DNA of 64,000 bases, from positions 6,634,001 through 6,698,000 of the forward strand of contig NW_025964383.1 of the NCBI RefSeq assembly GCF_023055435.1. The letters are read 5' to 3'. The first letter of the stretch is position 1; every line of letters begins with the position of its first letter. Below, piece after piece: positions 5,719 to 42,610 of this stretch. Position numbers and translations under genes: made by a program. The notes under the pieces were generated by a model that was not told the DNA's origin, ran no database searches, and was given only the letters and a program-made list of their open reading frames with translations. The stretch comes from Haliotis rufescens. Its lineage: Eukaryota.

Positions 5719-5759
5719 CGACATCTGTATGCAAGCAAACGACCTCATCAATTTGACCT

Positions 5760-9514: not shown

Positions 9515-12500
9515 TTTGCCACTTCTATCAATGAGTTGATATATTTGATATCAAAAGACACGAGGGTGAGATTTTATTTATCATCCAACTTCATTCTTCC
9601 AACTTCTTCAATTTGTAGACAATAATTAGCAGTGTCTTCAGTGTAAAAAGTACTGCTAACAGCTTCAGTAGCAGAGCCATTAGTGATGTCATTTGATTGT
9701 GACGTCATGGTAACGTCACAATCTGCATGGTCTGCAAAGCATTGTGATGTAATTTCATTGCAGCGTCATCTACAGTGTAGATATCGCTTGATCTCATCCA
9801 AGCGATATCTCCTGTGAGAGCCAGTTTTGGATGATATATATATATATATTATTATTATTATTATTATTGTTATAACATCTTGCAGGAGGAGACGCATTTG
9901 AAGAAGAGACTGCAGGTGTTTCTTGCGGAGATGCTGAAGCTGGGCACAGTCAAGGGCTTCAAGTACTTCGCTTCATACATGAGAGGGCGTGAGGAGATGG
10001 TCATCAGTGTCGTCAATGAACCACAGGTTGCAATCACCTTCCGTGCTGCTTCAGCCTTGACTGACCAACCTTTATCACTGGCAGAATATTGCAGCATGTC
10101 CTGTTGTATCAGATGGAAGGGCATTGGACCTCCATTTTGTGATTAAATCTTCAGGAATGGCTTTTTGTATTCCGCACTTGATTCTCTCGCTCTATATTCC
10201 TGTAACTAGCTCTAAGTGTGAGGGGATGCTGAGGGTGGTCTCACAAAGTGTTTTCTAGCCAGCTCCAAGTGTAGTCAAAGGTCTTAGGTCAATGAACATG
10301 GTGTCTACCGCAGATGAAAAGTTTCATTGTCCAAATCCCAGATATTGCATGTGTGTGTGTATGTGTGATTGCAGACCCCCAACAACAGCTACAGCAGCGA
10401 GCCAGGCACTCCCCTGCACAACACAGAGTTTGCAGCAGGCTCCAGCTTCACCTCCAACAACCTCCCCTATGACAAGTAAGTGTGGTGCACTCAAAACAGC
10501 ATGTATGTGTGTAGAACCCAACAGTTATCATATAGTTGTTGATTAGACCACAGTCAATAGGGAAATTTGATTAAACTTTCGTCTAAAGATATTTTGATCT
10601 TTCATACATATCAGGTCATCTAGTTCCAGTATGTTGTGTGTTGACCTTTCATGCATATCCAGTCATCTTGTACCAGTATGTTGTGTGTTGACCTTTCATG
10701 CATATCCAGTCATCTAGTACTTGTATGTTGTGTGTTGACCTGGCATGCATATCCAGTCATCTTGTACCGGTATGTTGTGTGCTGACCTGGCATGCATATC
10801 CAGTCATCTAGTACTTGTATGTTGTGTGTTGACCTGGCATGCATATCCAGTCATCTTGTACCGGTATGTTGTGTGTTGACCTTTCATGCATATCCAGTCA
10901 TCTAGTACCGGTATGTTGTGTGCTGACCTTTCATGCATATCCAGTCATCTTGTACCAGTTTGTTGTGTGTTGACCTTTCATGCATATCCAGTCATCTAGT
11001 ACCGGTATGTTGTGTGTTTACCTTTCATGCATATCCAGTCATCTAGTACCGGTATGTTGTGTGCTGACCTGGCATGCATATCCAGTCATCTTGTACCAGT
11101 ATGTTGTGTGTTGACCTTTCATGCATATCCAGTCATCTTGTACCGGTATGTTGTGTGTTGACCTTTCATGCATATCCAGTCATCTAGTACCAGTATGTTG
11201 TGTGCTGACCTGGTAGCATATCCAGTCATCTTGTACCGGTATGTTGTGTGTTGACCTTTCATGCATATCCAGTCATCTAGTACCAGTATGTTGTGTGCTG
11301 ACCTTTCATGCATATCCAGTCATCTAGTACCGGTATGTTGTGTGCTGACCTGGCATGCATATCCAGTCATCTAGTACCGGTATGTTGTGTGTTGACCTTT
11401 CATGCATATCCAGGCATCTAGTACCAGTATGTTGTGTGTTGACCTTTCATGCATATCCAGTCATCTTGTACCAGTATGTTGTGTGTTGACCTGGCATGCA
11501 TATCCAGTCATCTAGTACCGGTATGTTGTGTGTTGACCTTTCATGCATATCCAGTCATCTTGTACCAGTATGTTGTGTGCTGACCTTTCATGCATATCCA
11601 GTCATCTAGTACCGGTATGTTGTGTGTTGACCTGGCATGCATATCCAGTCATCTAGTACCGGTATGTTGTGTGTTGACCTTTCATGCATATCCAGGCATC
11701 TAGTACCAGTATGTTGTGTGTTGACCTTTCATGCATATCCAGTCATCTTGTACCAGTATGTTGTGTGTTGACCTGGCATGCATATCCAGTCATCTAGTAC
11801 CGGTATGTTGTGTGTTGACCTTTCATGCATATCCAGTCATCTAGTACCGGTATGTTGTGTGCTGACCTTTCATGCATATCCAGTCATCTTGTACCAGTTT
11901 GTTGTGTGTTGACCTGGCATGCATATCCAGTCATCTAGTACCAGTATGTTGTGTGTTTACCTTTCATGCATATCCAGTCATCTAGTACCGGTATGTTGTG
12001 TGCTGACCTTTCATGCATATCCAGTCATCTAGTACCGGTATGTTGTGTGTTGACCTTTCATGCATATCCAGGCATCTAGTACCAGTATGTTGTGTGTTGA
12101 CCTTTCATGCATATCCAGTCATCTTGTACCGGTATGTTGTGTGCTGACCTTTCATGCATATCCAGTCATCTAGTACCGGTATGTTGTGTGCTGACCTTTC
12201 ATGCATATCCAGTCATCTAGTACTGGTATGTTGTGTGTTGACCTTTCATGCATATCCAGGCATCTAGTACCAGTATGTTGTGTGTTGACCTTTCATGCAT
12301 ATCCAGTCATCTTGTACCGGTATGTTGTGTGTTGACCTGGCATGCATATCCAGTCATCTAGTACTGGTATGTTGTGTGTTGACCTTTCATGCATATCCAG
12401 TCATCTAGTACCGGTATGTTGTGTGCTGACCTTTCATGCATATCCAGTCATCTTGTACCAGTATGTTGTGTGTTGACCTGGCATGCATATCCAGTCATCT

Positions 12501-15500
12501 AGTACCGGTATGTTGTGTGCTGACCTTTCATGCATATCCAGGCATCTAGTACCAGTATGTTGTGTGTTGACCTTTCATGCATATCCAGTCATCTTGTACC
12601 AGTATGTTGTGTGTTGACCTAGCATGCATATCCAGTCATCTAGTACTGGTATGTTATGTGTTGACCTTTCATGCATATCCAGTCATCTTGTACCGGTATG
12701 TTGTGTGTTGACCTTTCATGCATATCCAGTCATCTAGTACCGGTATGTTGTGTGTTGACCTTTCATGCATATCCAGTCATCTTGTACCAGTATGTTGTGT
12801 GTTGACCTGGCATGCATATCCAGTCATCTTGTACCGGTATGTTGTGTGTTGACCTTTCATGCATATCCAGTCATCTAGTACCAGTATGTTGTGTGCTGAC
12901 CTTTCATGCATATCCAGTCATCTAGTACCAGTATGTTGTGTGCTGACCTTTCATGCATATCCAGTCATCTTGTACGGGTATGTTGTGTGCTGACTTGACA
13001 TGCATATCCAGTCATCTAGCACCAGTATGTTGTGTGTTGACCTTTCATGCATATCCAGTCATCTAGTACCGGTATGTTGTGTGCTGACCTTTCATGCATA
13101 TCCAGTCATCTTGTACCAGTATGTTGTGTGTTGACCTGGCATGCATATCCAGTCATCTAGTACTGGTATGTTGTGTGTTTACCTTTCATGCATATCAAGT
13201 CATCTAGTACCAGTATGTTGTGTGTTGACCTTTCATGCATATCCAGTCATCTAGTACCAGTATGTTGTGTGTTGACCTTTCATGCATATCCAGTCATCTT
13301 GTACCGGTATGTTGTGTGCTGACCTTTCATGCATATCCAGTCATCTAGTACCGGTATGTTGTGTGTTGACCTTTCATGCATATCCAGTCATCTAGTACCG
13401 GTATGTTGTGTGTTGACCTGGCATGCATATCCAGTCATCTTGTACCGGTATGTTGTGTGTTGACCTGGCATGCATATCCAGTCATCTAGTACTGGTATGT
13501 TGTGTGTTGACCTTTCATGCATATCCAGTCATCTAGTACTGGTATGTTGTGTGTTGACCTGGCATGCATATCCAGTCATCTAGTACCAGTATTTTTTGTG
13601 TTGGCCGTACATGCACCTTAATCATCATGAGTACTGGTGTCTTGTGTGTTGACTTGAAATGCATGTCTAATCATCATGAATATATATTGTGTGTTGACTT
13701 GAAATGCATGTCTAATCATCATGAATATATTGTGTGTTGACTTGAAATGCATGTCTAATCATCATGAATATATTGTGTGTTGACTTGAAATGCATGTCTA
13801 ATCATCATGAATATATTGTTTGTTGACTTGAAATGCATGTCTAATCATCATGAATATATTGTGTGTTGACTTGAAATGCATGTCTAATCATCATGAATAT
13901 ATTGTGTGTTGACTTCAGGAGGTCACTGATGCTGTCTCAGCGGACGCAGATGTCTCTGAGCGGCCTCGGGGACAAGGGTGTAGGTTTGCCTCCAGCCTCC
14001 CCAAGTGATGATGAGACACAGGCCATGGTATGTATCCATTATCACATTGTACTTGGATATAGCACAGATTATGATGCTGCTTACATTCACTGGGAACAAT
14101 TATTTCCAGATGTGTGGGTCACATGTTGATATCCACTTCCTAGATTTAGGACTCTGGGTTGGAGTAGACGCAGCAGATACTCTTCAGTCACTGTCACGCC
14201 CCACACTGGTCAGGGATTAACAGCCGTATTACAAGAGGATGTTCTCATCTGCCAGAGAAACTATGCTGCCTGGTCTCACAGCCATTGCAAGTATAGGTGT
14301 AGACTCTACTGATCTGTGTCAAACAAGTTGACGGTTGGACTCTCCACTACTTTGACATACAAGAAAAATACCATGATACAGACTTCGATTTATTAGCAAG
14401 CGTGGCAACATATTTTGGGCAGAAAACCTCACTTAAAACAAAGATTAACTGAACCGTGAAATTTAGTAACATCAACAGGATGGACAATTGGTGCCACACA
14501 GACTGTACTGTTATGTCTACCGCGTCACGATGCCTGAACTTTCTGTTTGTGGAACATTATGTTTTTAACTTACCCTGCTTTACTCCTTAATGCATTTACT
14601 GCTTGTTCTTGACAGAACAAAGAGCTGTTTGAGGTCTTTCTGAATAAGAAGTTGTTAGAACTAGTTGTGTGGCTAATCCCATGACACAGCTCCTATGTGA
14701 CCATGGAAGTGATGACATCACTTATCATCACATTACTGCTGTCACTCAGAGAGAATGGTCACCTATTTTGAGCTCTCAGCTTTATCCATTACAATCCTTT
14801 GCATGTTATTACAACCCTATTGTTTTATGTGAATTATATCCTTCCTATGGTTTGTGTCTTCATACTTTACATATGATTTTTACTATTGCATTAATATTGT
14901 TCTTCCATTTAGCCAATTTGAATTCACTTTGTAGTCACGTTTTTTCTTGTGATGCGTTTTGTATTCTTTGTGTTGCTTGGTTCTTCTTATGCATTGTTGT
15001 ACCTATGCTTCCCTATGGTTATTAAAGTGTTTATTCACTTTTCTTTGCGTAATCTTATCCCTTAACCTCCATGTTCTGGGATTTAGAATGTTACATACAC
15101 ACACAGTCATGGTGATTACACCTTCTGCTTCATTGCAGACTTATGTCCCGTTGTACTCAGTGCCACAGTAACAAGGCTTATGAAACTGCTGGATTGGATC
15201 CCTAGAGCCAACAACGCTCATGAGATCAGAGCAGTTACTGGACACGCAATTGGCTTTCAGACAACGGAGGTCCAATGTTTTCCTCAAGCCCTTGGCTGCG
15301 CCTGGCCTCTTGATGAGGGTTCTGTGAATGTTCCTGCCATTTCTCCCTGTCTAATCAGTGCCCGTTCAACTTTGGTTGAACGCTTCCTTGCAGAGGCCGA
15401 TAGTACTCTCGTAGAATTGTTTTCATGTGACTTCTGGTAGACATGATCTGAACCAAATGTTGAAGGCCATCACAAATTCACGACTGATTAGACGTTTGAC

Positions 15501-18500
15501 AGAATCTTACCTTGTCTTCGCAAGTCAATACCTGAGTATCATGGCCTTGGAAGATGTCGAAGGCATTCATAGTTTTGGCATTCTGGTCATAGCACTACAG
15601 GTCACCAGTCCTTGTTGCGACTAAGAAGCTCCTAAGATCAAGCCTTACCCGACTTGCGCAGTGTTAGCATGCCTGACATGGGGGTTACTCTGCTAACCAG
15701 CTGTTTGGCTTGGTAAATCAGTTTCTAGACTTTAGCACATGCTAATTTGCTTTTTGCTGGGACATCCACATAGTCTCGTAGCATCCATAGACAAGATTGG
15801 TCGAAGCAGGTAAAGATTTGCACAAGTGTGCTCAACGACTGTCATGAACTACTGCAGAGTTTATGTCCCTGAGGACCACATCTGAAAGTATGCCCTCCAC
15901 CGTACCGTCCGATAAAGATGCATTAAGGAGTAATGCAGGATAAGTTAAAATATCTAGTAAAATCTAGATATTTTGTTATAGTTGTGTACTTATCCTGCAT
16001 TACTTTGACTAAAGTAGCCCACCTGTCTCAGAGCTGCCTATCCCACAATGTCTTCAGATGTTACGATCTAGCTGTAATGTGATGATACGTGACGTCATCA
16101 CTTCAATGGTCATGTGGGAGCTGTGTGATGGGATTTGCCACACAACCAGTTGGAACAACTTCTTCTTCAAAAAGACCTCACACAGCTCTTCTTTCTGTCA
16201 GAACAAGCAGTAAATGCATTAAGGAGTAAAGCAGGATAAGTATACAAATATAAAACAACATCTAGATTTTACTAGTATTTGAATGTGCCTACCACTGCTC
16301 TGTCATGAAGAAAATAAAGATCTAATCAGATTCTATACTACTGGTAGAATAGCTGTTTGAGTGACCAGGACGTTGTTGTTTGCCTGGCAGGATGAGTCGT
16401 CCACCGTGTTCCTGATCGCTGGCTACACCCGCTACTCCTGTCCCTATGTGTGGGTGCGCTCCAACCATGAACGCCTGGTCAGGCTAACTGGGGGAGACAC
16501 TCAGGAGAAAGACAACCCTCTCAGACTCAAGTCCACATACAAGTGGAAGGATAATGGTGAGTGTGAAAATGATAGATAGCACCCAGGCTAAGTGTCTGTT
16601 CCCGCCATATTCAATGAGTCTGATCATCATGGCGTTGATAATTGTAAGAAGGAAAACCTGTCACAGATGTATCAACCAAATAGTGACCATTGCCTTGTCA
16701 AAGTTGAAACCACTGTGCACGTGCCACACCATCCACCAAGTTGTCCGTGGCGAGCGTTGGTGCACTAGGATTTCTATCTGTCACTGGACACTGCAATGGG
16801 CAATGCCTGAATGCGCTGATGCTCTTCCTGTGACATGTTCCTTCCACAGCGACATCATTTCATGTCAGGTCATGTATCCTATAGCGCCACTATCTCTATG
16901 AGCTGTCCATTTCATGGCTTGCAGTTACTGCAGTCGTGTACGACTAAAATCACCTCTACTCACAATCATCAGCAGGACTATGTTTGTGTTTACATGTGTT
17001 AGCTTTGCCCTATAATGTACTTGTGGATGGTTTAGAGCCCTTGATTAAACTGGAACCACTCTATATATAAAGACATCACTTTAGATCCTGTTTCTTGGTG
17101 TAAAAAACTATATTTTTGTCCTGAACTATTACAAACATCATTATCCTTATCCCATCAAAATTCAGAGCTAACATATACTTTTTTACACTACACATGGAGG
17201 TAGTTCATAGCTAAACTATACTTTATTCCACTACACATGGGGGTAGTTCAGGGCTAAACTACACTTTATTCCACTACACATGGAGGTAGTTCAAGGCTAA
17301 ACTACACTTTATTACACTACACATGGAGGTAGTTCAAGGCTAAACTATACTTTATTACACTACACATGGGGGTAGTTCAAGGCTCAACTATACTTTATTG
17401 CACTAAACAAGGAGGTAGTTCAAGGCTAAACTATACTTAATTACACTGCACATGGAGGTAGTTCCAGGCTAAACTATACTTTATTTCACTACACATGGAG
17501 GTAGTTCAAGGCTAAACTATACTTAATTACACTGCACATGGAGGTAGTTCCAGGCTAAACTATACTTTATTACACTACACATGGAGGTAGTTCAAGGCTA
17601 AACTATACTTTATTACACTACATATGGAGGTAGTTCCAGGCTGAACAATACTTTATTACACTACATATGGAGGTAGTTCCAGGCTAAACTATACTTTATT
17701 ACACTACACATGGAGGTAGTTCAAGGCTAAACATTACTTTATTACACTACACATGGAGGTAGTTCCAGGCTAAACTGTGCTTTATTACACTACATATTGG
17801 GATAGTTCAAGGCTAAACTATACTTTATTACACTACACATGGGGGTAGTTCAGGGCTAAACTATACTTTATTCCACTACACATGGAGGTAGTTCAAGGCT
17901 AAACTACACTTTATTACACTACACATGGAGGTACTTCAAGGATAAACTATACTTTATTACACTACAGATGGAGGTAGTTCAAGGCTAAACTATACTTTAT
18001 TACACTACACATGGGGGTAGTTCAAGGCTCAACTATACTTTATTGCACTAAACATGGAGGTAGTTCAAGGCTAAACTATACTTAATTACACTGCACATGG
18101 AGGTAGTTCCAGGCTAAACTATACTTTATTTCACTACACATGGAGGTAGTTCAAGGCTAAACTATACTTAATTACACTGCACATGGAGGTAGTTCCAGGC
18201 TAAACTATACTTTATTACACTACACATGGAGGTAGTTCAAGGCTAAACTATACTTTATTACACTACATATGGAGGTAGTTCCAGGCTGAACAATACTTTA
18301 TTACACTACATATGGAGGTAGTTCAAGGCTAAACTATACTTTATTACACTACACATGGAGGTAGTTCAAGGCTAAACATTACTTTATTACACTACACATG
18401 GAGGTAGTTCCAGGCTAAACTGTGCTTTATTACACTACATATTGGGATAGTTCAAGGCTAAACTATACTTTATTACACTACACATGGAGGTAGTTCCAGG

Positions 18501-21500
18501 CTAAACTATACTTTATTACACTGCACATGGAGGTAGTTCCAGGCTAAACTATACTTTATTTCACTACACATGGGGGTAGTTCCAGGCTAAACTATCCTTT
18601 ATTACACTACACATGGAGGTAGTTCAGGTCTAAACTATACTTTATTACACTACATATGGGGATAGTTCAAGGCTAAACTATACTTTATTACACTACACAT
18701 GGAGGTAGTTCAAGGCTAAACTATACTTTATTCCACTACACATGGAGGTAGTTCAAGGCTGAACTATACTTTATTACACTAAACATGGAGGTAGTTCAAG
18801 GCTAAACTATACTTTATTACACTTCACGTGGAGGTAGTTCAAGGCTAAACTATACTTTATTACACTAAACATGGAGGTAGTTCAAGGCTAAACTATACTT
18901 TATTACACTTCACGTGGAAGTAGTTTAGGGCTAAACTATACTTTATTGCACTAAACATGGGGGTAGTTCAAGGCTAAACTATAGGTTATTACACTACACA
19001 TGGGGTAGTTCAAGGCTAAACTATACTTTATTACACTACACATGGAGGTAGTTCCAGGCTAAACTATACTTTATTACACTACACATGGAGGTAGTTCAAG
19101 GCTAAACTATACTTTATTACACTACACATGGAGGTAGTTCAAGGCTAAACTATACTTTATTACACTACACATGGAGGTAGTTCAAGGCTAAACTATACTT
19201 TATTCCACTACACATGGAGGTAGTTCAAGGCTAACCTATACTTTATTACACTACACATGGAGGTAGTTCAGGGCTAAGCTATACTTTATTACACTAAACA
19301 TGGAGGTAGTTCAAGGCTGCACTATACTTTATTACACTACACATGGAGGTAGTTCAAGGCTAAACTATACTTTATTACACTACACATGGAGGTTGTTCAA
19401 GGCTAAACTATACTTTATTACACTTCACGTGGAGGTAGTTCAAGGCTAAACTATACTTTTTTACATTTCACGTTGAGGTAGTTCAAGGCTAAACTATACT
19501 TTATTACACTATATATTGGTGTAGTTCAAGGCTAAACTATACTTTATTACACTACATATGGGGATAGTTCAAGGCTAAACTATACTTTATTACATAACAC
19601 ATTGAGGTAGTTCAAGGCTAAACTATACTTTATTACACTACATCATGGGATATGGTTCAAACAGTATTTCTTAAATGAGAATATTTTTTTTCTTATCGTG
19701 CATTACGCCTGGATGATTCACTGCTTACCTTACTTCAGCAAAAGACAGTGCTCAGCGATGTTCTCAGGTAAAAACAAATGTTTCTGTTTTCAGCGGACCA
19801 TTGCCGCTATCACGTGACCTTGATGACAAGTCACCTTCCTCTCATCACTGCCTGTCACATAACAGCAAGGATGTCTCTCAGCTGAGCTCTTCAAATTGGA
19901 TATTTCAGACCCTTAGGTTAGGCTATTACCCTAAATTATGTCTGCCACGTGGCTCGTTGTTTCCCGCCATTTTTAATTTCTGGTCCATCTAAGGACATAC
20001 CTTAGTTGGTGGATGATAGAGTGGAATGTCTGTTTGTAGACACCTCCCTTCAGGGTTGGGGCACTCATCTGCAAGGCCAGACAGCTGCAGGGCTGTGGTC
20101 CGGTGCTCATCAAAAGTGGCACATAAACAATTTGGAGTTGGAAGCGTTGATTCTCGCCATCTCACATTGGCAGAATCAACTACAGTCCGCCCAACTCGCA
20201 ATATCCACAGACAATCAGGGGACAATGCACTCCCATTCCCTTCTTCAACAGACATTCAGGTTCTTTCATCTAGCGGAATGGCTGGAACTACAATTCATAG
20301 TTCAGCACATCCCCAGATGTCAGAACATATTGGCCGATGCCTTATCCCGACCAGACAGGGTGGCACCCACCGAGTGGAAACTTCACACAGAGGCATTTCA
20401 ATTGCTGTTTCAGAGGTTCGGGCAACCAAACATTTAACTGTTTGCAACTTGCCAAATCCATCAACTTGTAACATATGTCTCCCTGTTACCGTATCCACAG
20501 GCTTTGGCGGCGGGTGCATTCAGCATCCCTTGGGAAGGGCTAAAAGCGTACGCTTTTCCGCCACCTGTTCTACCTCCCAAGGTGATACAAAAGATCAAAG
20601 AGACAAGAAATCTTGCTCTGACTTTGGTTGTGCCCTGGTGGCCATCAAGGGCTGGTCGTTGAGCTCAGAAATCTGGCAGAAACGGATCCTCCCACACTGG
20701 TCAAACCTACTCATCCACCCTCACAGCAAATTGCCTCACCAAATGCCAGACAGGTTTCGCCTGCCACGTGTAGTTCATCTTAAAAAGGCGTTAAGTGCAA
20801 AGGGTTTTTCGGCACGGGCAGATAAGGCTATCACTTTAGCTCATTGTCCCTCTACTAGAGGGTTATACAATGATAAGTGAGGATCATTTGAAACATTTGA
20901 TCATTGAGACATCACCCGGATCCGTTTTGAGCATGGTACGCACAGAGCGGTACATCTCGGGTGATGTTGGAATTTTATAGCAAAAAATCCACCACTAGGC
21001 CAAACTGATTGTTCCTTCACTATCCCACAAATATCTATGATTGTGGGAGTTAAAGATGGGGGTGAACTCCTCTTGTGCCCGGTGCAAGCACTACGAGTTT
21101 TCATCTGCGCTCCAAAACTTAGATCACCAAACTTGATCCACTGAGAGCGAATAATTCTCACGAGATCAGGGCATTAGTCTCTTCCATGGAGTTATAAAGA
21201 AACTGTTCTATTAAAATGATCATTGAAAGATGTTTTTGGAGATCAGACACTGTTTTCGCTAGTCATTATCTTAGCGATGTGGCTCTTCAGGATGTCGAAG
21301 GCATGCACAGTTTTGGCCCTCTGGTAGTAGCCCCGCAGGTAACCAACCTTCAACGCAAATAATGAACTTGCCCCATATGGAGCCAGTCTACTTCCCACAC
21401 AGGTCGTAATAGACACACCCAGTGGAAGAAATGAAGACAAGCTTTCTAATCAAGCTTTGGCTCGGTGACACAGTAGGTAAAGATTTTAGCTTTCGCTATC

Positions 21501-24500
21501 ATCCATTATTACCATGTGTGTACAGGGTGTTACCCTTTAATTCTTATGTTAACCCAAAAGTTAGGGCATTTTTTCTGTGCCTTTTCCGCCTCATGGATTA
21601 TTGACAAAAATGTGTTGTTTTGGGAGTTTGAATTATTGAGGTTTTGAACATCTGAAGGTATATGCGCCTTTAATCCGTCCGATATAGATGCATTATGGAG
21701 TAATGCAGGATAAGTAAAAAATGTGGTAAAATCTAAATATTTTTTACATTTGTATACTTATCCTGCATTACTAGCCATCCGTCGCAGACTTGCCTACCCA
21801 CTTTGGCTTCAGAAACCTCAAAAGATTGTTTTTTAAGCTTGGGCGACAGACAGTGATGTGAGGTGACTTGTCATCAAGGTCACATGACAGCAGCGATGGT
21901 CCATGCAAAAACAGGTATTGAAATCTGAACATCTTTTTTATCCCCCGCCCCAACGAAGTTGGCCGGGAATATAGAAATGGGTTCCGTCCTTGTGTGTGTG
22001 TGTGCGTGTGTGTGTGTGCGTGCGTGTGTGTGTGTGTGTGCGTGTGTGTGTGCGTCCCGAAATCGTTTCCGGAGCATAACTCAGAAACCATTAAATATTT
22101 CTCTACGAAACTTTGCATGTCTATCAGACTCATGCTGAACTGGTGCCTTTTGCTACTAAGGAATTTTATAAATTTTTATTTTTTACGTTTCCATGGCAAC
22201 AAGTTGGACTTAGGTTCTATAAGAGTGGTGTTAGTTTCCGGAGCGTAACTCAAAAACCGTTAAATCCTTTCTTACAAAACTTTGCATGTTAACCAGACAA
22301 ATACTGAACTGGTGCCTTTTGCTATTTAGGAGTTTTATAAATTTTTATTTTTTACGTTTCCATGGCAACAAGTTGGACTTAGGTTCTGTAAGGGTGGTGT
22401 TCGTTTCCGGAGCATAACTCAAAAACTGTTAAATCCTTTCTTACAAAACTTTGCATGTCTACTAGGCACATACTGAACTGGTGCCTTTTGATATATAGCA
22501 CTTTTAGAAATTTTTATTGTTTATGTTTCCATGACAACAAGTTGGATTTAGGTTCTGTGAGGGTAGGGTTCGTTTCCGGAGCATAACTCATAAACCGTTC
22601 AATATTTTTTCATCAAACTTTTTTTCATCATAGTATAACAAATAAACTGTTAAATATTTCCTTGCATGTCTATATATAAAGCACATACTGAACTAGTGCC
22701 ATTTGATATTAAGGAGTTTTAGAAATGTTTATTTTAGAATTTCCATTTCAGCTATTTGACATGGGCTAAGAGAAATGTTGGGTCAGTTACCTGGTTTGGG
22801 ACCATAACGTGTTAAAATAGGCGGGGGATATAGATGACTTTGTCAACTATACGCTTGTTTACCCAAGACCATTGCTGAGCGCTGTCTTTTGTTATCATAA
22901 GGTATGCAGTGAATGCGTTAAGGAGTAATGCAAGATAAGCATACAAATGTAAAAAAAATTTAGATTTTACTAACCTGTCTCAAGTTTTACTACCAGACCA
23001 ACATTTCCTCGCTGTTACAGACGTTTGTATATGGGACATCATTGCCGAGTTAGTCAAGCTATGCACGTATCCAGCTCCCCGCAACCCATTTGCCGTGGAC
23101 ATTCCATTCTTCTCAACTCTGCCACTCTCAGAGCAGGTGTTGTCAACAGCAGCCATGGTGTCCTTCTTGCAGAAAGTGTTGATACACACACCTGATGACA
23201 GACCTTATGCTGCTAAAGGTAGGAGAAAGAGTTGATGCACACACTTGATGACAGACCTTATGCTGCTAAAGGTAGGAGAAAGAGTTGATACACACACTTG
23301 ATGACAGACCTTATGCTGCTAAAGGTAGGAGAAAGAGTTGATGCACACACCTGATGACAGACCTTATGCTGCTAAAGGTAGGAGAAAGAGTTGATGCACA
23401 CACTTGATGACAGACCTTATGCTGCTAAAGGTAGGAGAAAGAGTTGATACACACACCTGATGACAGACTTTATGCTGCTAAAGGTAGGAGAAAGAGTTGA
23501 TACACACACCTGATGACATACCTTATACTGCTAAAGGTAGGAGAAAGAGTTGATACACACACCTGATGACAGACTTTATGCTGCTAAAGGTAGGAGAAAG
23601 AGTTGATACACACACTTGATGACAGACCTTATGCTGCTAAAGGTAGGAGAAAGAGTTGATACACACACCTGATGACAGACTTTATGCTGCTAAAGGTAGG
23701 AGAAAGAGTTGATACACACACTTGATGACAGACCTTATGCTGCTAAAGGTAGGAGAAAGAGTTGATACACACACCTGATGACAGACCTTATGCTGCTAAA
23801 GGTAGGAGAAAGAGTTGATACACACACTTGATGACAGACTTTATGCTGCTAAAGGTAGGAGAAAGAGTTGATACACACACTTGATGACAGACCTTATGCT
23901 GCTAAAGGTAGGAGAAAGAGTTGATACACACACCTGATGACAGACCTTATGCTGCTAAAGGTAGGAGAAAGAGTTGATACACACACTTGATGACAGACTT
24001 TATGCTGCTAAAGGTAGGAGAAAGAGTTGATACACACACCTGATGACAGACCTTATGCTGCTAAAGGTAGGAGAAAGAGTTGATACACACACTTGATGAC
24101 AGACTTTATGCTGCTAAAGGTAGGAGAAAGAGTTGATACACACACTTGATGACAGACTTTATGCTGCTAAAGGGTAAAAAAAAACACAAACAATGCAAAC
24201 ATAAAAATTGATTGAGTTAAAATATGTTTTTTTTCATACTTTAATAATTTTCAATTACATGTTATTTTGAAAAAGAGTGGAAAGTGAATATTGGACATTC
24301 ATCAAAAAGTAAATAAACATTTTACTCCCAAATGATCACTTTGACCCTTCTTCTCTTTGTATAAGTTTTTAAATTCCTAATGTATGTAACACTTCATTGT
24401 AACAATAATAACAGGAAGGACAATGCCATAATCAGGACAAGTTAGATTATTGTTCTATTTCCATTTCACAGTGTTGTGGATTTCTTTGCAGTGTTTGAGG

Positions 24501-24754
24501 ATCTCCAGTTAGTGACAAAATGTCACTTCTCTGCTGTTCAGAAACTGGCTAAGGAGGGAGGGTTGCCCATTCTGCATCCACAGCAGCAGCAACAACAGCA
24601 GCAGCAGCGCAGGAAGATGAGTGGCGGTCAGTCTCAGTTGTCATCACGGAAACGGTATCCAAGCAGCGGCAGTCAGTACCCGGCCCAGTATGGGCAGTAC
24701 CAGCAGCCCACAGCAGGCTACAGCTACGGCAGTCACAATACTTCCAGCTACTGA
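7958..24754 (+). CDS. Conserved uncharacterised protein, about 328 aa, 7 coding exons, C-terminal polyQ
   Basis: Exons: 7958-7966 (MKQ, tentative), 9886-10026 (EETHLKKRLQVFL...YMRGREEMVISVVNEPQ), 10375-10475, 13919-14027, 16391-16556 (FLIAGYTRYSCPYVWVRSNH...DNPLRLKSTYKW), 23021-23218 (IWDIIAELV...NPFAVD...), 24492-24754 (stop). All GT-AG, phases compatible, no internal stops. Confidence 0.88.
8607..8880 (+). mobile_element. 5'-truncated SINE with Nin-like central domain
   Basis: cttgccataaaaggcgact...gtaagaggcaactaa motif and 3' end atatagctggaatattgctgagtgcgg followed by an aac-rich tail. Confidence 0.75.
9448..9511. repeat. (TA)n microsatellite
   Basis: About 32 TA units. Confidence 0.98.
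10600..13620. repeat. 46/47-bp minisatellite, about 64 copies, intron 3 of the plus-strand gene
   Basis: Unit gtatgttgtgtgttgacctttcatgcatatccagtcatctagtacca, with recurring binary variants (ttt/tgg, ctag/cttg, cca/ccg). Confidence 0.97.
13621..13918. repeat. 43-bp sub-array (6-7 copies) ending at the exon-4 acceptor
   Basis: Unit atcatcatgaatatattgtgtgttgacttgaaatgcatgtcta; the last copy ends tgtgtgttgacttcAG at 13918. Related to the 47-bp unit. Confidence 0.93.
14568..16275 (+). mobile_element. Internally deleted DIRS-type (tyrosine recombinase) retrotransposon
   Basis: ~165-bp inverted terminal repeats (about 14570-14737 vs 16033-16240). Internal complementary region at about 15918-16005 matches both termini. 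YR C-terminal remnants AHEIRA and FASQYLSIMALEDVEGIHSFG. Confidence 0.8.
17165..19645. repeat. 43-bp minisatellite, about 57 copies, with a 645-bp higher-order duplication
   Basis: Unit tatactttattacactacacatggaggtagttcaaggctaaac. Confidence 0.97.
19690..22972 (+). mobile_element. Decayed DIRS-type retrotransposon (RNase H, methyltransferase and YR remnants); right ITR split by an insertion
   Basis: RNase H remnant 20006-20437 (VDTSLQGWG, HINNLELEA, TDN, NILADALSR). Methyltransferase-like AFSIPW...YAFPP...PWWP at about 20515-20645. YR remnants LCPVQAL and FASHYLSDVALQDVEG. Left ITR ~19693-19835 is inverted at 21860-21930 plus 22855-22940; internal complementary region 21688-21772. Confidence 0.88.
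21934..22859 (+). mobile_element. Non-autonomous Helentron-type (HINE/DINE-like) element
   Basis: T-run start, subterminal inverted repeat tatcccccgcc (21939) / ggcgggggata (22820), (GT)n microsatellite, 169-bp core repeats at 22065/22234/22403/22572, short 3' hairpin and cttgtt end. Confidence 0.85.
23171..24175 (+). repeat. 53-bp minisatellite, 19 copies; unit is the last 48 nt of coding exon 6 plus the donor GTAGG
   Basis: Unit agaaagagttgatacacacacctgatgacagaccttatgctgctaaag|gtagg; the first copy is the exon end itself (donor at 23219). Confidence 0.97.
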
Positions 24755-24822
24755 CTCACTCACTCACACACACACACACACGCACGCACACACGCACGCA
24801 CGCACGCACGCACGCACGCACA
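24755..24822. repeat. Compound (CTCA)/(CA)/(CGCA) microsatellite directly after the stop codon
   Basis: Direct reading. Confidence 0.9.
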
Positions 24823-26670
24823 GGGGGCATTGACAAGGAGGGCTGTCCTAGGGTCTAGTCACAGAACTGACCTTCAAGGAGGACATAGGACAATGCTCCT
24901 GGGGATCTTTGAAGACTATGTTGTCCTTTGTATGGACACAACTAGGCAGAGATTACAGTATATATGTAATAGACATTATATAACAGATCTGTTTTGCTCT
25001 TCTAGTTGCCATAATATGTATTGTCATGATCTGTGCTGCATTAGTGAAGAGTATATTGTCGAAGATGTCAAATGCAAGGAACAGCTGTGTGTGAACTTGA
25101 TTCATTTTATTGATGACATGACATGATTAAACATAAAACAAGAAGAAAGAATAAACAATTTAATAGGAATCTTTCATACAGCAAATGATGCTTCGTTCTA
25201 CTAAAAAACTGCTTCAAATTTGGTATTATTTATGAGGAATCCTTGTGTTGACCTCAAATACTACCAGAATATATTGTATGTCAAATGTGGGCAGGTAGAC
25301 ATTCCACACATAGTGTAATGTAGCCACACCAGCCACCACTCACCTCTACACCTGTAGAGGTAATGGATGATGTATGGTCGGTGGAAGTATTGGGTAATCA
25401 CCGTGTGTGATGGTTAGAGAAAATAGGGTAAACTACTTCATGTCATGTTAACCATGGATTTAGATGAATAATGTTTGTCTTGTTTATTGTTTTTCTTTCG
25501 TCATTATAAAAAAATGTCACCAAGCGACAGTTGCCAGTGTGTGTAAGATGGTAGTCAGTTGCAGGCGTTGTGTAAGCGGAGACATGAGAGATCTGTTTCA
25601 TAAACTCATTGTGGGGTTTGGATCTCTTGGGTCTGTTCCCCAAAGGGACCTTATTCGATCTTATCCTTCTTTCCAACTTCTAACATAGACCCACACCTGT
25701 AGCAGTGCTACGGTGGCTTATTGGACAGAACCCAGGTCATCTGGCAGCAGTTGGCCACACTGTTGATCTGCATACACATCCGTGACACACTTGCTGTATT
25801 CCCTCTGTTGATGTTCTGGTATGGAGCCTACTAATTATAGTTGTATATATTTGAAAAGTAATAAATGTATCATCACCCACATATCATCACCCATATTTGT
25901 CATCTCATTACTGTATTCATCCCTCCGAGGGTTGTACTGTATATGTCCCATGTTTTAGTTGCATGTATGTAGAAGACTGATAGGAGTAAGTATGAAGAAT
26001 ATATTAGATAGCAGAATCATGTCCAGAGACTAGTGTCACCAGATGCTAACATGGTGTTGGTGATGGTACTGAGACTGTTCTGTGACATCTGAACTGGAGG
26101 ATGAAGAGGACACCAACATCTTGTCCAATGTCAGCTGATCAATCTGCAAATGACTGAGATATTGTATGGTACACTCACTATATCTTATCTGTCTCTCTAT
26201 GTCTGTCACTACATCCTGTTGGAATAATGGGTTCGCCTTGCTTGTAGCACAATCCGATGAACATAGAGTACAGTGGACAGTTTGTGTACTCTTCATGTCA
26301 TCTACCACACTACTTGAAATTAGTGATACTCTTGTGAAGCCCTCATATGTCCTGCCTAGACTCAATTACTTACATGCAACCGTGAACCAATCGTAAAAAT
26401 ACAGGTAGCGGTAAACACCTTGAATTGTTAACGAGTCAATCATGCACTTTTTAGCTCCCACGTAAAATATAATTCCCACATGTGCATGTCAGCCAGCCAG
26501 AACACTGATTCAGTATTTTCAGAGGATAACCACAGCAATAAAGCCAAAGAAGGCACTGCATATGTGCAGTAGTTGTTTGTCCCACTCCAAAAAGTCACTC
26601 CAACAGGGATGAGTGAGCTATGTTTGGATTGACCTCTGCCCTGCCAACTTAATGCTGTCAATGGTGTCGG

Positions 26671-29600
26671 CTATGAAGGACGTGCTGTGAGCGTCCACAC
26701 CTGGGACGTCTCCCCTGAACAAGGTTGTATGGTGAGAGTCTTCTTGCCTGCCTGGAGACATAGTCCACTGATTTTTTCATGTAAATATCTGTCCTGAAAC
26801 AAGTCGAAGAAGATTATTTCAATCTGTGGCAATTGGAAACAAATATTAAAGGTTATTGACAAATGTGCTGTCACTTTTTCAATATTCGTTCTTGTGCTAG
26901 TTACACCGGAACACTGTCTGTGGCAAGTGTCTACCTGAGTGTATGTCCAGCTTGATCCCTGCCGAAGGTTTAGCCAGATATTTCCGTCCTTGACGTAAGT
27001 GTCGACTCTCTTGGAAGACATTGAGTTCAAATTTCACTGATAATTTCATTATTTTAATCTGTGGCAAAAAATGTAACGTAATTGACAAATGTGTTATCAC
27101 TCTTTCAATATTCGCTCGTGCTCGTTACATATAAAAGAGTGTGTTTGACAAGTGTCTACCTGAGTATATGTCCAGCTTGATCCCTGTCGAAGGTTTAGTG
27201 AGACATTACCGTCCTTGACGTATAGGTGTTGATGGTAGTTCCAGATCTGCCCATTGTCACGCATGCACCAAAACTGAAGGTAGAGACAGATGCAGAGGGT
27301 GTTGTTTACTTTGCTTTAAAGCAATATTCCAGTTATAAGACGGCAGCCTGTATGTGATTGAGTGTGGACCAGGAATCCAGTTATTGATGTTATGAGCAAC
27401 CATCCAGGGCTGTCGGGATGAGTTGACAAATGCCATCAATCAAGTCATGGAGCCGGTTCCCTGTTGGTTTCTAGGGACCAATCCTAACCGGGAATCCCTA
27501 AAGCTTCCGAATCTTACCACTAGCAATGGGGTGGTGCTGACACATTCGACCCCTGGTCACCACGGTTTACAGTATGAAAACAGTGTAAGAGTTTGGGCAG
27601 GACAGAACCACTTCGTGGGTTATATTTGTTAAGCTATAGTAAGAGTAACCTTGAACTAGGTCATGATAATATACTATTAAAAAAAAGTAGGGGATATTTC
27701 ATTTTGCGATCATACTTGTAACAAATGCAAATGAATACGAGACAAAGTAATATAGATCCTTACAGAGGAAACATTTCCAGTGAAATTCGGCCCCCAAACA
27801 CAATGGCAACCCCAGGATCTGCACGTGATGCTAGTGATGATCATGGGGGCTGAACACCAGATTTGCACGACTTTGAATTTGAAGGTTATACCCACTGTGG
27901 AAGGAAATTTGAAGGTGGAAACAGTTTAATTGTTTTGGAACTCAGTTACCAAACGGGTGACATGCGCCGACTTACACAAAATGAAAGGTTACGTGCCCTT
28001 GGCATGCTACAGGTTGGCACAACACAGACCGTTGTTGCACGGACGATGAACGTTTCACAGTCTGTCATAAGCAGATTATGGTCCAGATATCGTGCTACAC
28101 ATTCTGTTAATGATAGACGACGCTCGGGTCGACCAAGGGCGACAACTCATGCACAGGATCGATTTATCCGTACTTTAGCCTTGAGAAATCGTGTCATAAC
28201 GGCTAATCAGATTAGAGCTCGACTACTAGCAGACACTGGTGTGAGAGTGAGTGCCCAGACGATCAGAAATGGACTGCACAGAGGTCATTTACACGCGCGA
28301 CGTCCTCGCGTCATTCCATGTTTGAGAGATCATCACATAAGGGCAAGACGCCGTTTGTGTCGGGATCGTCAACACTGGGATAATCGACGTTGGAACAATG
28401 GAATGTTTTCAGATGAGTCGAGGTTCACTGTGGACTTCCTGGACAGGCGTAGGAGGGTGTGGCGTCGACGAAACGAACGTTTCCATGATGTTAACGTCAT
28501 TAGACATGATCAATTTGGGGATGGATCTGTAAAGGTGTGGGGAGGCATCATTGCTGCTGGAAGAACGGACTTACATGTTGTTGCCGGACGTGTCACAGGC
28601 CAGTACTACCGGGACAACATCCTGGCAGCCCATGTTGTGCCGTTTGCACGTCGTCATGGCCGCCGTTTCATCTTCCAGGATGACAATGCAAGATGTCACA
28701 GGGACAGGATTGTTACAGATTACCTCCAACAGCAATATATCACCACATTACCATGGCCAGCGCTGAGTCCGGACCTGTCGCCCGGCGAGCATGTCTGGGA
28801 CATGCTTGGACAGCAGTTACGTCAACGTCAACAACGTCCTACCACTATCCAAGAACTTGCTGCTGCGTTGCAACAGGAGTGGAATAACCTTGACAAAAAT
28901 GACTTGGGACGCCTCGTAAGGACTATGCCACGTCGTATCCGTGCCTGTCTAGCCAACAGAGGGGGGTTTACCCGTTATTGACTTTGCTTTCATGTCATGG
29001 CAACTTTGCTGTTTGACCCTGGGTTTGGTTTTGCCCTTTGTATGGAAAATCTGTGCTTCACCGGCAGTACCAAAGGTGTTGAATAAATTGACAAATGTTC
29101 CCTTAATGTCTTTTCGTCATTTGTTTCCTCTTTGGGTTCACAATTTCCGTGTCATAAATCTTGTAAATCCAATATCCAATATTTTTTTTAATAGTATACT
29201 TTACTTCCAGTTACACCCCGACTAAGTGTGTTCTGTAAAGGCATATGGTGCATAATGATCCTACCTGATTGTAACCCTTGCCCCCGCATGTGTACATATA
29301 CGGCAGCAGGGAGTGCCGCCCCATCGAGTCTATACAGTTATTGTAGGCAGCGTTCCGAATCTGAAAATGAAAACAACCTGGAATAACACAGCTTCCTCTT
29401 CAATGGTAAACAGCCATTATAGTAAGCATCCGGAGTTGGTCACGGTGTTTGATGGTAAATAGATTCGTTAATAAAAATAATATATTGCAAATGAACTCCC
29501 AAAGCTTGTTCATTTGTCCACCTCCCATTTTGTCCATCAGCATTTTCAAGCTTTAACCACGTCTGTGTTGTCCGACCGCCTGCAGAGCGGAATGAGACTT

Positions 29601-35019: not shown

Positions 35020-36033
35020 TCAACAGCCGGATCAACAACCACACAAACTGGGAATGAAGACATAGATTACTAATAATAATTCATTTTAAAGTAAAAACGT
35101 TACACGCACAGACTAAAATCTTTATATGTGCATCTTGTGAAAGTTTCTTGCTACCACTCTTTTACCCCAAGATAATTGTATCTGGTCCTAAACGGAAATA
35201 ACTAAACAGTTTCAGTTCAAACTACGGCATTTGAACAGTGTGGCCATAGAGAGGAATAGGTTTTTTTTCAATTGAAAGCAGTTTAATATATCAGAAGAAT
35301 GAAGCTACATTGTCCAGATCTCTCGTCTAAGTCTTTCTTGCACACTAACTCACCACGTTGGTATATCAGAATGAAGCTACATAGTCCAGATCTCTCGTCT
35401 GACCCCTTCGTTGCACACTAACCTACCGCACTGTTGATCACCAGGAGTAGGCATTCTGTGGTCAGCTACCTCCGGTGTAATGTCCACTCACACAGGCGCG
35501 CCACTGGCCATAACACGTACATAAAACCACACTTATTTGACTGCAGTGTGTGTGTACTGCCCTCAAGTCTGATAAGAACTCTTAACGGAGGTGTTTCTGC
35601 ATGTGGTGTTAGTTTATAACAGTTTGTGTAAATGCAGACAAACAAAACGTGTCGTAACTCACGCCTTTATATACCTTTATAGGCCTACTATACCTTTACT
35701 AATGTTCAATTAAATATTTCATATATTATTTAATGCTGATAAAATGACGTAAGAGAGTGGCTGTGTTTGCCATCAATAATAAGACATTGCCTGACTCTGT
35801 GTGTGCTCTCTGTGCACAGTGTTCCGAACATCTCCGCATTCAATTTGAGAGTGTCATTCTTCAATGGGATTTCAAAGTTTTGGCCTGGTCGCTATTCGTC
35901 AATTTTCGCGTTGCTTGCATTTACGCTGTAAAACTACAAATCCGAAATGGCGGTCTCCACTATTCGTGACGTTTCGTGCTGCTTGAAATTTAGCCGTAAA
36001 AATACAAATCGTGGAACAAGTTCAAAAGTGGGA

Positions 36034-37400: not shown

Positions 37401-38769
37401 AATTCGAAAAATAAAGAATTAGGAAGACCGAATACATAAAGGCGCATTGACAAAGATAAACTGATAGTTTAAGGATTTATTGACACTAAACAATAACAAC
37501 CAAGCTTGTATACACAGCGAGTGTACACAAGTTAGCAGCACTAATAGTAACTTGTCAGTTCTAAAACAAAGCTGACCCCATCTATTGCTTGCAAAGAGGG
37601 TATTACAAATCTACCGGGGTCAATATTGCCACGATGCCAGTCTAAACACATCAACATATATCAGATCAAATCACCATTACGCAATCTGTATGCACACCTG
37701 GACAGCCAATCAGGTCCTTGAACTTTCGTCGGGGCACGACATTTCTATACGAACTGACGTTCGGGAGTATCTCTCAGAGGCTAATGATAATGGTGATGAC
37801 GATGTTTTAAGGGCTATACACCTTTAAGCTTATACACGTAAGGGGCGACAAAACGCGGAGGTCGGATTAGGAAACACCCGCTCGGGTTCCCCAAGCGAAA
37901 AACCAAGGCTATTGAGTGTGCTTAATAACAAACTTTAATATGATACTTGGGATGAGCATTTTAACTAACATAGATAATAAGACCATCATCACAAGGTGTA
38001 GCGTTTGTACTTGAAGATGATATTTTATATACACTAAAGGCCAATGTGGTGTATTACTTACTGCTGAAAAGAGTACCCGAGGGAAATAAAGATTTAATAT
38101 ACATAAGCAATAAAAATACAACGGGCGGTCCCTCAATCTGGATCTGCGACACATCGCTAGATTGAAGTTGAACACCAAATGTTTGGTAGCACCCAGGTTA
38201 AGTGTCTGTTCCCGCCATATTCAATGAGTCTGATCATCATGGCGTCGATAATTGTAAGAAGGAAAACCTGTCACAGATGTATGAACCAAATAGTGACCAT
38301 TGCCTTGTCAAAGTTGAAACCACTGTGCACGTGCCACACCATCCACTAAGTTGTCCGTGGCGAGGGTTGGTGCACTAGGATTTCTATCGTCACTGGACAC
38401 TGCAATGGGCAATCCCTGAATGCGCTGATGCTCTTCCTGTGACATGTTCCTTCCACAGCGACATCATTTCATGTCAGGTCATGTATCCTATAGCGCCACT
38501 ATCTCTATGAGCTGTCCATTTCATGGCTTGCAGTTACTGCAGTCGTGTACGACTAAAATCACCTCTACTCACAATCATCAGCAGGACTATGTTTGTGTTT
38601 ACATGTGTTAGCTTTGCCCTATAATGTACTTGTGGATTGTTTAGAGCCCATGATTAAACTGGAACCACTCTATATAAATACATCACTTTAGATCCTGTTT
38701 CTTGGTGTAAAAAACTATATTTTTGTCCTCAACTATTACAAACATCATTATTCTTATGCCATCAAAATT

Positions 38770-41141: not shown

Positions 41142-41929
41142 GATGACATACCCTATGCAGCTAAAGGGTAGGAGAAAGTGTTCATATGCACAGCCGATGA
41201 CATACCCTATGCAGCTAAAGGGTAGGAGAAAGTGTTCATATGCACAGCCGATGACATACCCTATGCAGCTAAAGGGAAGGAGAAAGTGTTCATATGCACA
41301 GCCGATGACATACCCTATGCAGCTAAAGGGTAGGAGAAAGTGTTGATATGCACAGTCGATGACTTACCCTATGCAGCTAAAGGGTAGGAGAAAGTGTTCA
41401 TAAGCACAGCCAATGACATACCCTATGCAGCTAAAGGGTAGGAGAAAGTGTTGATATGCACAGCCGATGACATACCCTATGCAGCTAAAGGGTAGGAGAA
41501 AGTGTTCATATGCACAGCCGATGACATACCCTATGCAGCTGGAGGTAGGAGAAAGTGTTGATATGCACAGCCGATGACATACCCTATGCAGCTGGAGGTA
41601 GGAGAAAGTGTTGATATGCACAGCCGATGACATACCCTATGCAGCTAAGGGGTAGGAGAAAGTGTTGATATGCACAGCCGATGACATACCCTATGCAGCT
41701 AAAGGGTAGGAGAAAGTGTTGATATGCACAGCCGATGACATACCCTATGCAGCTAAAGGGTAGGAGAAAGTGTTGATATGCACAGCCGATGACATACCCT
41801 ATGCAGCTAAAGGGTAGGAGAAAGTGTTGATATGCACAGCCGATGACATACCCTATGCAGCTGGAGGTAGGAGAAAGTGTTCATATGCACAGTCGATGAC
41901 ATACCCTATGCAGCTGGAGGTAGGAGAAA
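41142..41929 (+). repeat. 54-bp minisatellite (~14.5 copies) homologous to the exon-6/donor repeat
   Basis: Unit gatgacataccctatgcagctaaagggtaggagaaagtgttgatatgcacagcc. Confidence 0.95.
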
Positions 41930-42610
41930 ATTCACACGATTGGAATTTATTTCATCTTGATACCATTCAAATATTTTCCATGAGTACATAATGAATTTTA
42001 TTGTAACAGTATATATATATGATTTAAGAAGTAAAAAGATCTATGTTTCTCATAAACACAAAATTAAAAATGATTAAGTAAAAATATATTTTTCATACTT
42101 AAATAGTTATTTTCAATCATGCAATATATATTTCTTTGACAAAAAGTGGAACATTAAAGAAATGGATATTGAACATTTATCATACACAAGTCAAAATTTT
42201 ACTCGCAAATGATCACAAGGACCCTTCTTTTCTTTGCATCATTTTTGAAATTCCAAATGAATGTAACATTCATTGTAACAATAATAACAGGAAGGACAAT
42301 GCCATATTCAGGACAGGTTAGATTATTGTTCTATTTCCATCTCAATGCCACATACATCCATTTCACAGTGTTGTGGATTTCTTTGCAGTGTTTGAGGATC
42401 TCCAGTTAGTACAAAATGTCACTTGTCTGCAGTTCAGAAACTGGCTAAGGAGGGAGGGTTGCCCATTCTGCATCAGCAGCATCAGCAACAGCGCAGGAAG
42501 ATGAGTGGCGGTCAGTCTCAGTTGCCATTGGCATCACGGAAACGGTATCCAAGCAGCGGTAATCAGTACCCTCTCCAGCATTCCACAGCAGGCTACAGCT
42601 ACGGCAGTTA

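What the first reader, a model, noticed from the sequence alone, without database searches (positions are those of the whole stretch)
23171..24175. Coding exon end plus donor repeated 19 times, with a built-in stop
Seen: copy 1 is the real exon end (KVLIHTPDDRPYAAK|gtagga), and 18 more copies differ from it at only a few sites, each with an AAAG|GT donor. Reading through the first donor gives G-R-R-K-S-stop, so any downstream donor truncates the protein. Inference: the array may evolve in concert with coding sequence, and could act as an NMD-coupled dosage control or a conversion template for the exon.
Basis: partly seen in the sequence, partly recalled or inferred. Interest (0 to 1): 0.7.

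Follow-up and report, generated by a model that had tools for sequence, protein, structure and literature searches.

The report
Splice-donor minisatellite in abalone DUF7886 gene
In an abalone gene of unknown function, the last 48 bases of an exon plus its splice signal are copied 18 more times into the next intron; assembled RNA from two studies joins at the first signal, so this is likely a tolerated repeat of a kind already known from human and lancelet genes, with weak hints that it trades sequence with the exon.

Summary
In detail: 19 head-to-tail 53-bp units at 23171-24173. Unit 1 is the end of the second-last coding exon of an abalone (Haliotis) DUF7886 gene; 18 of 19 units carry the identical AAG|GTAGGA donor, and read-through gives GRRKS-stop. 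RNA contigs from 2 of 2 studies laid join donor 1 to the last exon, as do all four Haliotis protein records. The stop is the exon's own sequence read out of frame, and it lies 36 nt before donor 2, too close for the 50-55-nt NMD rule, so dosage control is unsupported. The arrangement is described in print (human F7, 6-16, CBS, LMNB2, PDGF; lancelet 'mirages'; chicken 'exon stuttering'). It is common here: 6 of 17 introns of the neighbouring INTS4 gene carry junction repeats, and this scan noted such arrays before in this genome and others. The part worth keeping is exchange with the exon. An orphan sister array 18 kb away, in a duplicate without the exon, differs from the exon at 8 sites versus 1 fixed site for this array, and one related organism's exon carries a variant common in this array. 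Both are hints, not proof.

The parts
23171..24173 (+). 53-bp minisatellite, 18.9 units; unit = last 48 nt of the exon + first 5 nt of the intron (GTAGG)
23021..23218 (+). second-last coding exon of the DUF7886 (PF25377) gene; its last 48 nt are unit 1
   Evidence: covered by RNA contigs with 0 differences
23216..23224 (+). donor 1, AAG|GTAGGA, the one seen used
   Evidence: loose ends of RNA contigs X15 and X17 at 23218 continue into the last exon
23233..23235 (+). TGA met on reading through donor 1 (after G-R-R-K-S); the exon's own TTG-ATA out of frame; 36 nt before donor 2, 89 nt before donor 3
23269..24125 (+). 17 further identical donor 9-mers (last exon-like base at 23271 ... 24119), none seen used
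24125..24173 (+). terminal unit 19, ending AAAGG|GTAAAA; about 100-130 bp of intron found behind the sister array is missing here
24492..24754 (+). last coding exon; its acceptor lies in unique sequence
9886..16556 (+). four upstream coding exons (9886-10026, 10375-10475, 13919-14027, 16391-16556); the exon for residues 1-6 was not located
41142..41929 (+). orphan sister array (54 bp x 14.7, same unit phase) in a partial duplicate with no recognisable upstream part of the exon; its 3' end keeps an intron start GTAGGAGAAA that repeats the AGAAA at the unit's start
   Evidence: its flank and unit also appear in organisms B and C
42389..42610 (+). broken duplicate of the last exon (frameshift), 5% divergent

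Best explanation
This is a junction-spanning intronic minisatellite whose first unit is the coding exon end; it likely arose by local duplication between two short AGAAA repeats and is likely tolerated because the spliceosome takes the first of the identical donors. Shown: the anatomy, the use of donor 1 in assembled RNA, the array's presence at this place in organisms B and C, and unit turnover (a T>A change at unit position 7 is in 18 of 18 intronic copies here, while organism C's array shows T). Inferred: birth by slippage or unequal exchange at the AGAAA microhomology, which survives behind the sister array; first-donor choice by upstream-first selection as shown for human F7; and, as a side effect, unequal exchange that lets the fixed exon unit re-seed the array while selection keeps harmful array variants such as V231E out of the exon. 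No regulatory function is needed.
For: Donor 1 is joined to the last exon in one contig in each of 2 RNA studies, 0 differences over 23020-23218, and no other joint or loose end into the last exon was listed. All 4 Haliotis proteins of the cluster read through this junction as donor 1 gives it. The only RNA contig of the array itself is an 83-nt collapsed unit at depth 4.5 and 4.8 against 24.3 and 26.6 for the spliced contig; spread over about 17 copies that is roughly 1%, a rough figure since contig depth is a poor measure. All 6 array variants would be missense in the exon, so the copies show no sign of coding constraint. 6 of 17 introns of neighbouring INTS4 carry junction repeats (2 donor, 4 acceptor; 0 of 34 reverse-strand controls reach 5 copies). 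Precedents with the first donor used: F7, LMNB2, PDGF (PMC1557585); lancelet mirages do not disturb splicing (PMC3087553). No unusual RNA fold over three units, z -0.29.
Against: Contigs drop rare forms and NMD would deplete products of donors 3-18, so low-level use of later donors is not excluded. In human 6-16 and CBS two further donors are used (PMC1557585 introduction). The array persists at this site in organisms A, B and C, and a sister array of the same phase lies in a duplicate 6-12% diverged, so it is not fleeting. All 17 later donors are intact. Upstream-first selection was shown in mammalian cells, not molluscs.
Confidence: 0.8

Rival explanations
1. Two-way exchange that matters for the protein: the array acts as a pool of variants, and unequal crossover or conversion now and then writes them into the last 16 codons of the exon, filtered by selection. 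This adds to the best explanation rather than replacing it.
For: Organism B's single-copy contig (depth 8.07) has T at 23204 in the exon copy (Pro240>Leu), the variant found in 7 of 18 intronic copies here. Position 240 is variable among 118 homologous rows. The exon sides with this array against the sister array at 7 substitutions plus 1 insertion, and with the sister array at only 1 fixed site (P about 0.035 for <=1 of 8 under an even split, and by hand about 0.09 if the majority variant at position 22 is counted). The sister unit reads T-A-D-D like H. rubra (P0017) while the exon and this array read T-P-D-D. Fixed exon-array differences sit at the unit's 5' end (position 7 here, position 8 in organism C), where exchange has least room. 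V231E, fixed in the array, is absent from the listed residues of 118 rows (I, V, L, M, T, gap).
Against: 5 of 5 organism-A runs show no exon difference as far as their contigs reach. Organism C's exon change (23178 G>A) is not listed in its array. Of 2 exon-end substitutions seen in other organisms 1 matches an array variant, about a 1-in-10 chance by my arithmetic. T34 was not listed in organism B's main array contig. Pro is the commonest residue at 236 (27 of 118 rows; Ala 5), so the H. rubra match may be coincidence. A fresh re-expansion from the exon end would give the same asymmetry with no flow into the exon.
Confidence: 0.3
2. NMD-coupled dosage control: a share of transcripts uses later donors, meets the stop and is destroyed, and copy number tunes the level.
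For: Every later donor lies behind the stop; donors 3-18 are 89-884 nt behind it; all 17 are intact; steady-state RNA cannot show NMD targets.
Against: No later join in 2 RNA studies. Donor 2 falls under the 50-55-nt distance (36 nt), so it would be predicted to give a truncated 249-residue protein rather than decay. The stop is the exon's own sequence out of frame, and 53 is not a multiple of 3. The same architecture sits on many unrelated junctions nearby, and the sister array persists with no exon to regulate.
Confidence: 0.05
3. Assembly artefact (expanded repeat or uncollapsed haplotype).
For: The exact copy number rests on one assembly and was not checked.
Against: Array units, the exon-to-array join and the array-to-flank join appear in contigs of independent DNA runs of organisms A, B and C; the copies carry a patterned set of variants; the sister locus is 6-12% diverged and structurally different.
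Confidence: 0.02

Closest known systems
Human F7 intron 7 37-bp VNTR, with 6-16 (intron 2), CBS intron 13, lamin B2 and PDGF intron 4 minisatellites (Borensztajn et al. 2006, PMC1557585; read: abstract, introduction passages, discussion)
   Same: First unit spans the exon-intron boundary; identical donors repeated down the intron; the first donor is the one used (F7, LMNB2, PDGF). Copy number is in the same range (5-26).
   Different: Here the unit is mostly exon (48 of 53 nt, 16 codons) against 4 of 37 nt in F7; mollusc rather than mammal; length polymorphism not shown here; an exon-less sister array gives a natural control.
Lancelet 'mirages' (Adh3, globins BflGb6 and BflGb9; Ebner et al. 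2010, PMC3087553; read: passages)
   Same: Minisatellite-like duplication of an exon boundary in an invertebrate; normal splicing kept; concerted evolution inside the cluster with edge units set apart; both donor and acceptor types occur (also in INTS4 here).
   Different: The passages read do not report exchange with the coding unit; no sign here of the proposed route to intron gain, since the acceptor used lies in unique sequence.
Chicken dot-chromosome 'exon stuttering' (Hron et al. 2026, PMC12954441; read: abstract, passages, first part of discussion; supplements not seen)
   Same: Exon edge with its splice site copied into the adjoining intron, in a region where introns are full of local tandem repeats.
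   Different: There GC-rich and imperfect (<20% edit distance), in 3.4% of dot-chromosome introns; here about 40% GC, 96% matches, and 7 of 22 introns in the two genes examined.

Membership tests
Junction-spanning splice-donor minisatellite (F7 IVS7 type / mirage / exon stuttering) | Tandem array whose first unit spans a real exon-intron boundary | tested here: met
Junction-spanning splice-donor minisatellite (F7 IVS7 type / mirage / exon stuttering) | Later units repeat the donor sequence | tested here: met
   18 of 19 units carry the identical donor
Junction-spanning splice-donor minisatellite (F7 IVS7 type / mirage / exon stuttering) | Mature RNA uses the first (or first few) donors | tested here: met
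   2 of 2 RNA contig sets join at 23218; 4 of 4 Haliotis proteins agree; rare forms are not visible in contigs
Junction-spanning splice-donor minisatellite (F7 IVS7 type / mirage / exon stuttering) | Homogenisation among internal units, edge units set apart | tested here: met
   A at position 7 in 18 of 18 intronic units but not in the exon unit or in organism C's array contigs; unit 19 ends differently
Junction-spanning splice-donor minisatellite (F7 IVS7 type / mirage / exon stuttering) | Copy-number polymorphism between individuals | not testable with these tools
   only short-read contigs were available and contig depth is not a copy number
Regulated unproductive splicing (AS-NMD, poison donor) | Measurable use of the unproductive site | tested here: inconclusive
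   none seen in 2 RNA contig sets; contigs drop rare forms and no NMD-inhibited RNA was available
Regulated unproductive splicing (AS-NMD, poison donor) | Stop more than 50-55 nt upstream of the last junction | tested here: inconclusive
   donor 2: 36 nt, not met; donors 3-18: 89-884 nt, met; rule from PMC8339359 passages; introns in the 3' UTR and the mollusc rule were not checked
Regulated unproductive splicing (AS-NMD, poison donor) | Element conserved in sequence beyond neutral expectation | tested here: not met
   units turn over between close organisms; all 6 variants would be missense; the stop is exon sequence out of frame
Intron gain by tandem duplication of an AG|GT site (Rogers model, as cited in PMC3087553) | Acceptor supplied by a duplicated unit | tested here: not met
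   the acceptor used is at 24491, in unique sequence about 320 bp behind the array
DUF7886 protein family (PF25377) | Pfam match above the curated cut-off | tested here: met
   78.8 bits for the exon alone and 203 bits for P0003, cut-off 27

The most novel reading that the evidence does not exclude
A coding exon end is the anchored first unit of a minisatellite and trades sequence with it both ways: the exon re-seeds the array, the array now and then writes amino-acid changes (such as Pro240>Leu in organism B) into the protein, and selection blocks the harmful ones (V231E). With such arrays on perhaps a third of introns in parts of the abalone genome, this would be a widespread local mutational force on exon ends, and the exon-less sister array would be a ready-made control.
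Probability: 0.3. Interest if true: 0.5.

Novelty: new member of a known kind. Interest (0 to 1): 0.2.

Why it matters
As a single case it adds little: the architecture is in print for human, lancelet and chicken genes. It confirms that a mollusc spliceosome copes with 18 identical donors 53 nt apart. The useful feature is the pair of arrays, one attached to a working exon and one orphaned, which makes directly testable whether such repeats and coding exon ends exchange sequence. If they do, junction repeats would shape protein evolution at exon ends and could mislead SNP calling and gene annotation in repeat-rich genomes.

Tried and rejected
No listed holder run was on record as RNA; X15 and X17 were guesses by the tool, and their exon-to-exon joins show they are RNA. 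The whole array was never laid, so joins from later donors could be seen only as loose ends within units 1-3. Contig depth as copy number: not used. RNA structure masking later donors: no support, z -0.29. The 33-bp array at 5481-5718 looked like a second donor array on the minus strand; rejected, it lies inside an open frame in a repeat-like region with no Pfam match. A first automatic junction screen (3 of 32 INTS4 sites) left out one exon and mis-picked several junctions; it was replaced by protein-guided junctions (6 of 34 sites). The 25-bp array in INTS4 intron 9 starts at the donor GT but lacks exon bases and was not counted. No other copy of the unit was found in the genome beyond the two arrays (lower bound) and only one match for the exon's protein. 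Literature: no held paper names DUF7886; no paper on abalone junction repeats among 25 of 704 listed, nor on exon-array conversion among 20 of 79 listed; these listings are not exhaustive. Turri et al. 1995 (6-16) is not held and is cited only through PMC1557585. A microhomology origin of minisatellites is from my own knowledge; one search gave listings only.

Full report
Observation. Tandem Repeats Finder reports period 53, 18.9 copies, 96% matches and no indels at 23171-24173. A script found 19 unit starts exactly 53 bp apart. Units 2-18 differ from unit 1 at 1-3 bases, and unit 19 leaves the repeat after 49 bases. The donor 9-mer AAG|GTAGGA occurs 18 times; unit 19 ends AAAGG|GTAAAA. Reading through the first donor gives K-G-R-R-K-S-stop.

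The gene. The exon 23021-23218 matches Pfam DUF7886 at 78.8 bits, cut-off 27, and is identical in protein to Haliotis records. A six-exon model translates without internal stop and equals H. rufescens protein P0015 from residue 7 to the end, so the window is abalone, most likely H. rufescens. The family runs from molluscs to cnidarians, sponges, choanoflagellates, some fungi, fish and frogs (114 proteins at E <= 1e-20). No held paper names it. The array starts in the second-last coding exon: each unit is 48 nt of exon plus GTAGG.

Which donor is used. Eight coded runs were laid, on stretches holding the exon and units 1-3 only. In 2 of 2 RNA contig sets (X15, X17; different studies) one contig covers 23020-23218 with no difference and continues into the upstream exon on one side and the last exon on the other, which is donor 1. 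No joint and no other loose end into the last exon was listed. Each set also holds an 83-nt contig of the collapsed unit at depth 4.5 and 4.8, against 24.3 and 26.6 for the spliced contig. Spread over some 17 copies this is about 1% and fits unspliced RNA or DNA, but contig depth is a poor measure. All 4 Haliotis proteins in the cluster, including two H. rufescens isoforms, carry the donor-1 junction. Limits: contigs drop rare forms, and NMD would remove its own targets.

The stop. It is the exon's own TTG-ATA read in another frame (shown by the sequence), and a 53-nt unit shifts the frame anyway, so it needs no selection. It ends 36 nt before donor 2 and 89 nt before donor 3. By the 50-55-nt rule (PMC8339359, passages seen) donor 2 would be predicted to escape junction-dependent NMD and give a 249-residue truncated protein; only donors 3-18 would be NMD targets. 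The rule was not tested in molluscs, and 3' UTR introns were not checked. Three units fold no better than shuffles (z -0.29).

How ordinary it is. In 264 kb (window plus 100 kb on each side), 48 arrays cover 39% of the DNA. In the neighbouring INTS4 gene (named by P0018), with junctions placed by the protein, 6 of 17 introns repeat their own junction 10-mer 11-37 times within 1 kb: 2 donors and 4 acceptors; none of 34 reverse-strand controls exceeds 1. An earlier, cruder pass gave 3 of 32 sites. The DUF7886 gene has 1 of 10 sites. This is one repeat-rich region, not a genome-wide rate. Unchecked notes of this scan report the same kind of array elsewhere in this genome and in at least 44 genomes; they are leads, not support.

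Origin. A sister array of the same phase lies at 41142-41929 (54 bp, 14.7 copies), in a partial duplicate that holds the rest of the intron and a frameshifted last exon but no recognisable upstream part of the exon. Its 3' end reads GTAGGAGAAA before unique sequence, repeating the AGAAA that opens the unit inside the exon. I infer that this short repeat seeded the first duplication; the general mechanism is from my own knowledge. The duplicate differs by 11.9% in the non-repeat intron (35 of 295 aligned bases), 5.1% in the last exon and 6.2% in the 3' flank. Both arrays appear in organisms B and C.

Does the array evolve with the exon? For: the commonest sister unit differs from the exon at 7 substitutions and 1 insertion, and this array sides with the exon at all of them, apart from T31 in 1 of 18 copies and an extra G at the end of unit 19. 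The exon sides with the sister at only one fixed site, position 7. Under an even split of changes between the two arrays, 1 or fewer of 8 has P = 0.035; by hand it is about 0.09 if the majority variant at position 22 (10 of 18) is counted. The sister unit encodes T-A-D-D like H. rubra, while the exon and this array encode T-P-D-D. Fixed exon-array differences lie at the unit's 5' end: position 7 here, position 8 in both runs of organism C. The position-7 change would give V231E, a residue not seen there in 118 aligned rows. Organism B's single-copy contig has T at 23204 in the exon (Pro240>Leu), the variant in 7 of 18 intronic copies here, at a variable residue. Against: 5 of 5 organism-A runs show no exon difference as far as their contigs reach; organism C's exon change is not listed in its array; T34 is not listed in B's main array contig; 1 match in 2 substitutions is roughly a 1-in-10 chance; Pro is the commonest residue at 236 (27 of 118, Ala 5); and a fresh expansion from the exon end would give the same asymmetry. 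Flow from exon to array is fairly likely; flow from array to exon is a hint.

Comparison. PMC1557585 (abstract, introduction passages and discussion read) describes the F7 intron-7 minisatellite and lists 6-16, CBS, lamin B2 and PDGF. Only the first donor is used in F7, lamin B2 and PDGF, two more in 6-16 and CBS, and the mechanism is upstream-first selection. PMC3087553 (passages) names lancelet 'mirages', which leave splicing intact and show concerted evolution with edge units excluded. PMC12954441 (abstract, passages, first part of discussion; supplements not seen) describes chicken 'exon stuttering'. The array meets every defining feature that I could test; copy-number polymorphism could not be tested.

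Verdict. A real, ordinary member of a known kind, most likely a tolerated passenger (0.8). NMD dosage control is unlikely (0.05). Exchange that reaches the protein is possible (0.3) and is the only part worth a follow-up. Interest 0.2.

Noticed in passing
window 4461 to about 87 kb before the window start (G000:C605, loci L012-L020), minus strand: INTS4 gene (match to P0018): 6 of 17 introns repeat their own splice junction (2 donors, 4 acceptors), among them the 44-bp array at window 4-1741; a 25-bp array of about 660 copies fills intron 9 from its donor GT onward.
   Followed up: partly
window 16567-35885 versus 38177-54463: Patchwork tandem duplication carrying the 3' end of the DUF7886 gene and a glycosyltransferase gene; the 16567-17165 part is only 2.5% diverged from its copy, while the part behind the sister array is 5-12% diverged, which suggests a later re-duplication or conversion.
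   Followed up: partly
window 26000-35000, minus strand: Glycosyltransferase family 2 exons (PF00535); the motifs look like a polypeptide GalNAc transferase (recalled, not from a call). A 28-bp array (29932-31768) starts about 35 bp behind one of its donors and resembles that intron's start.
   Followed up: partly
window 27854-28981, plus strand: Uninterrupted 375-residue frame with Tc1/mariner-type transposase domains (PF01498, PF13358), present in the first duplicate only.
   Followed up: no
window 10594-13915: Two adjacent related arrays (47 bp x 65 and 43 bp x 6) fill intron 2 of the DUF7886 gene and end three bases before the acceptor at 13918 without repeating the AG.
   Followed up: no
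window 5315-6564, minus strand: Open frames of 172 and 179 residues, the first with an 11-residue repeat from the 33-bp array at 5481-5718; no Pfam match; perhaps a decayed mobile element (guess).
   Followed up: partly
window 24580-24610: CAG/CAA-rich stretch coding a glutamine run in the last exon; its length differs among Haliotis proteins and the duplicate.
   Followed up: no
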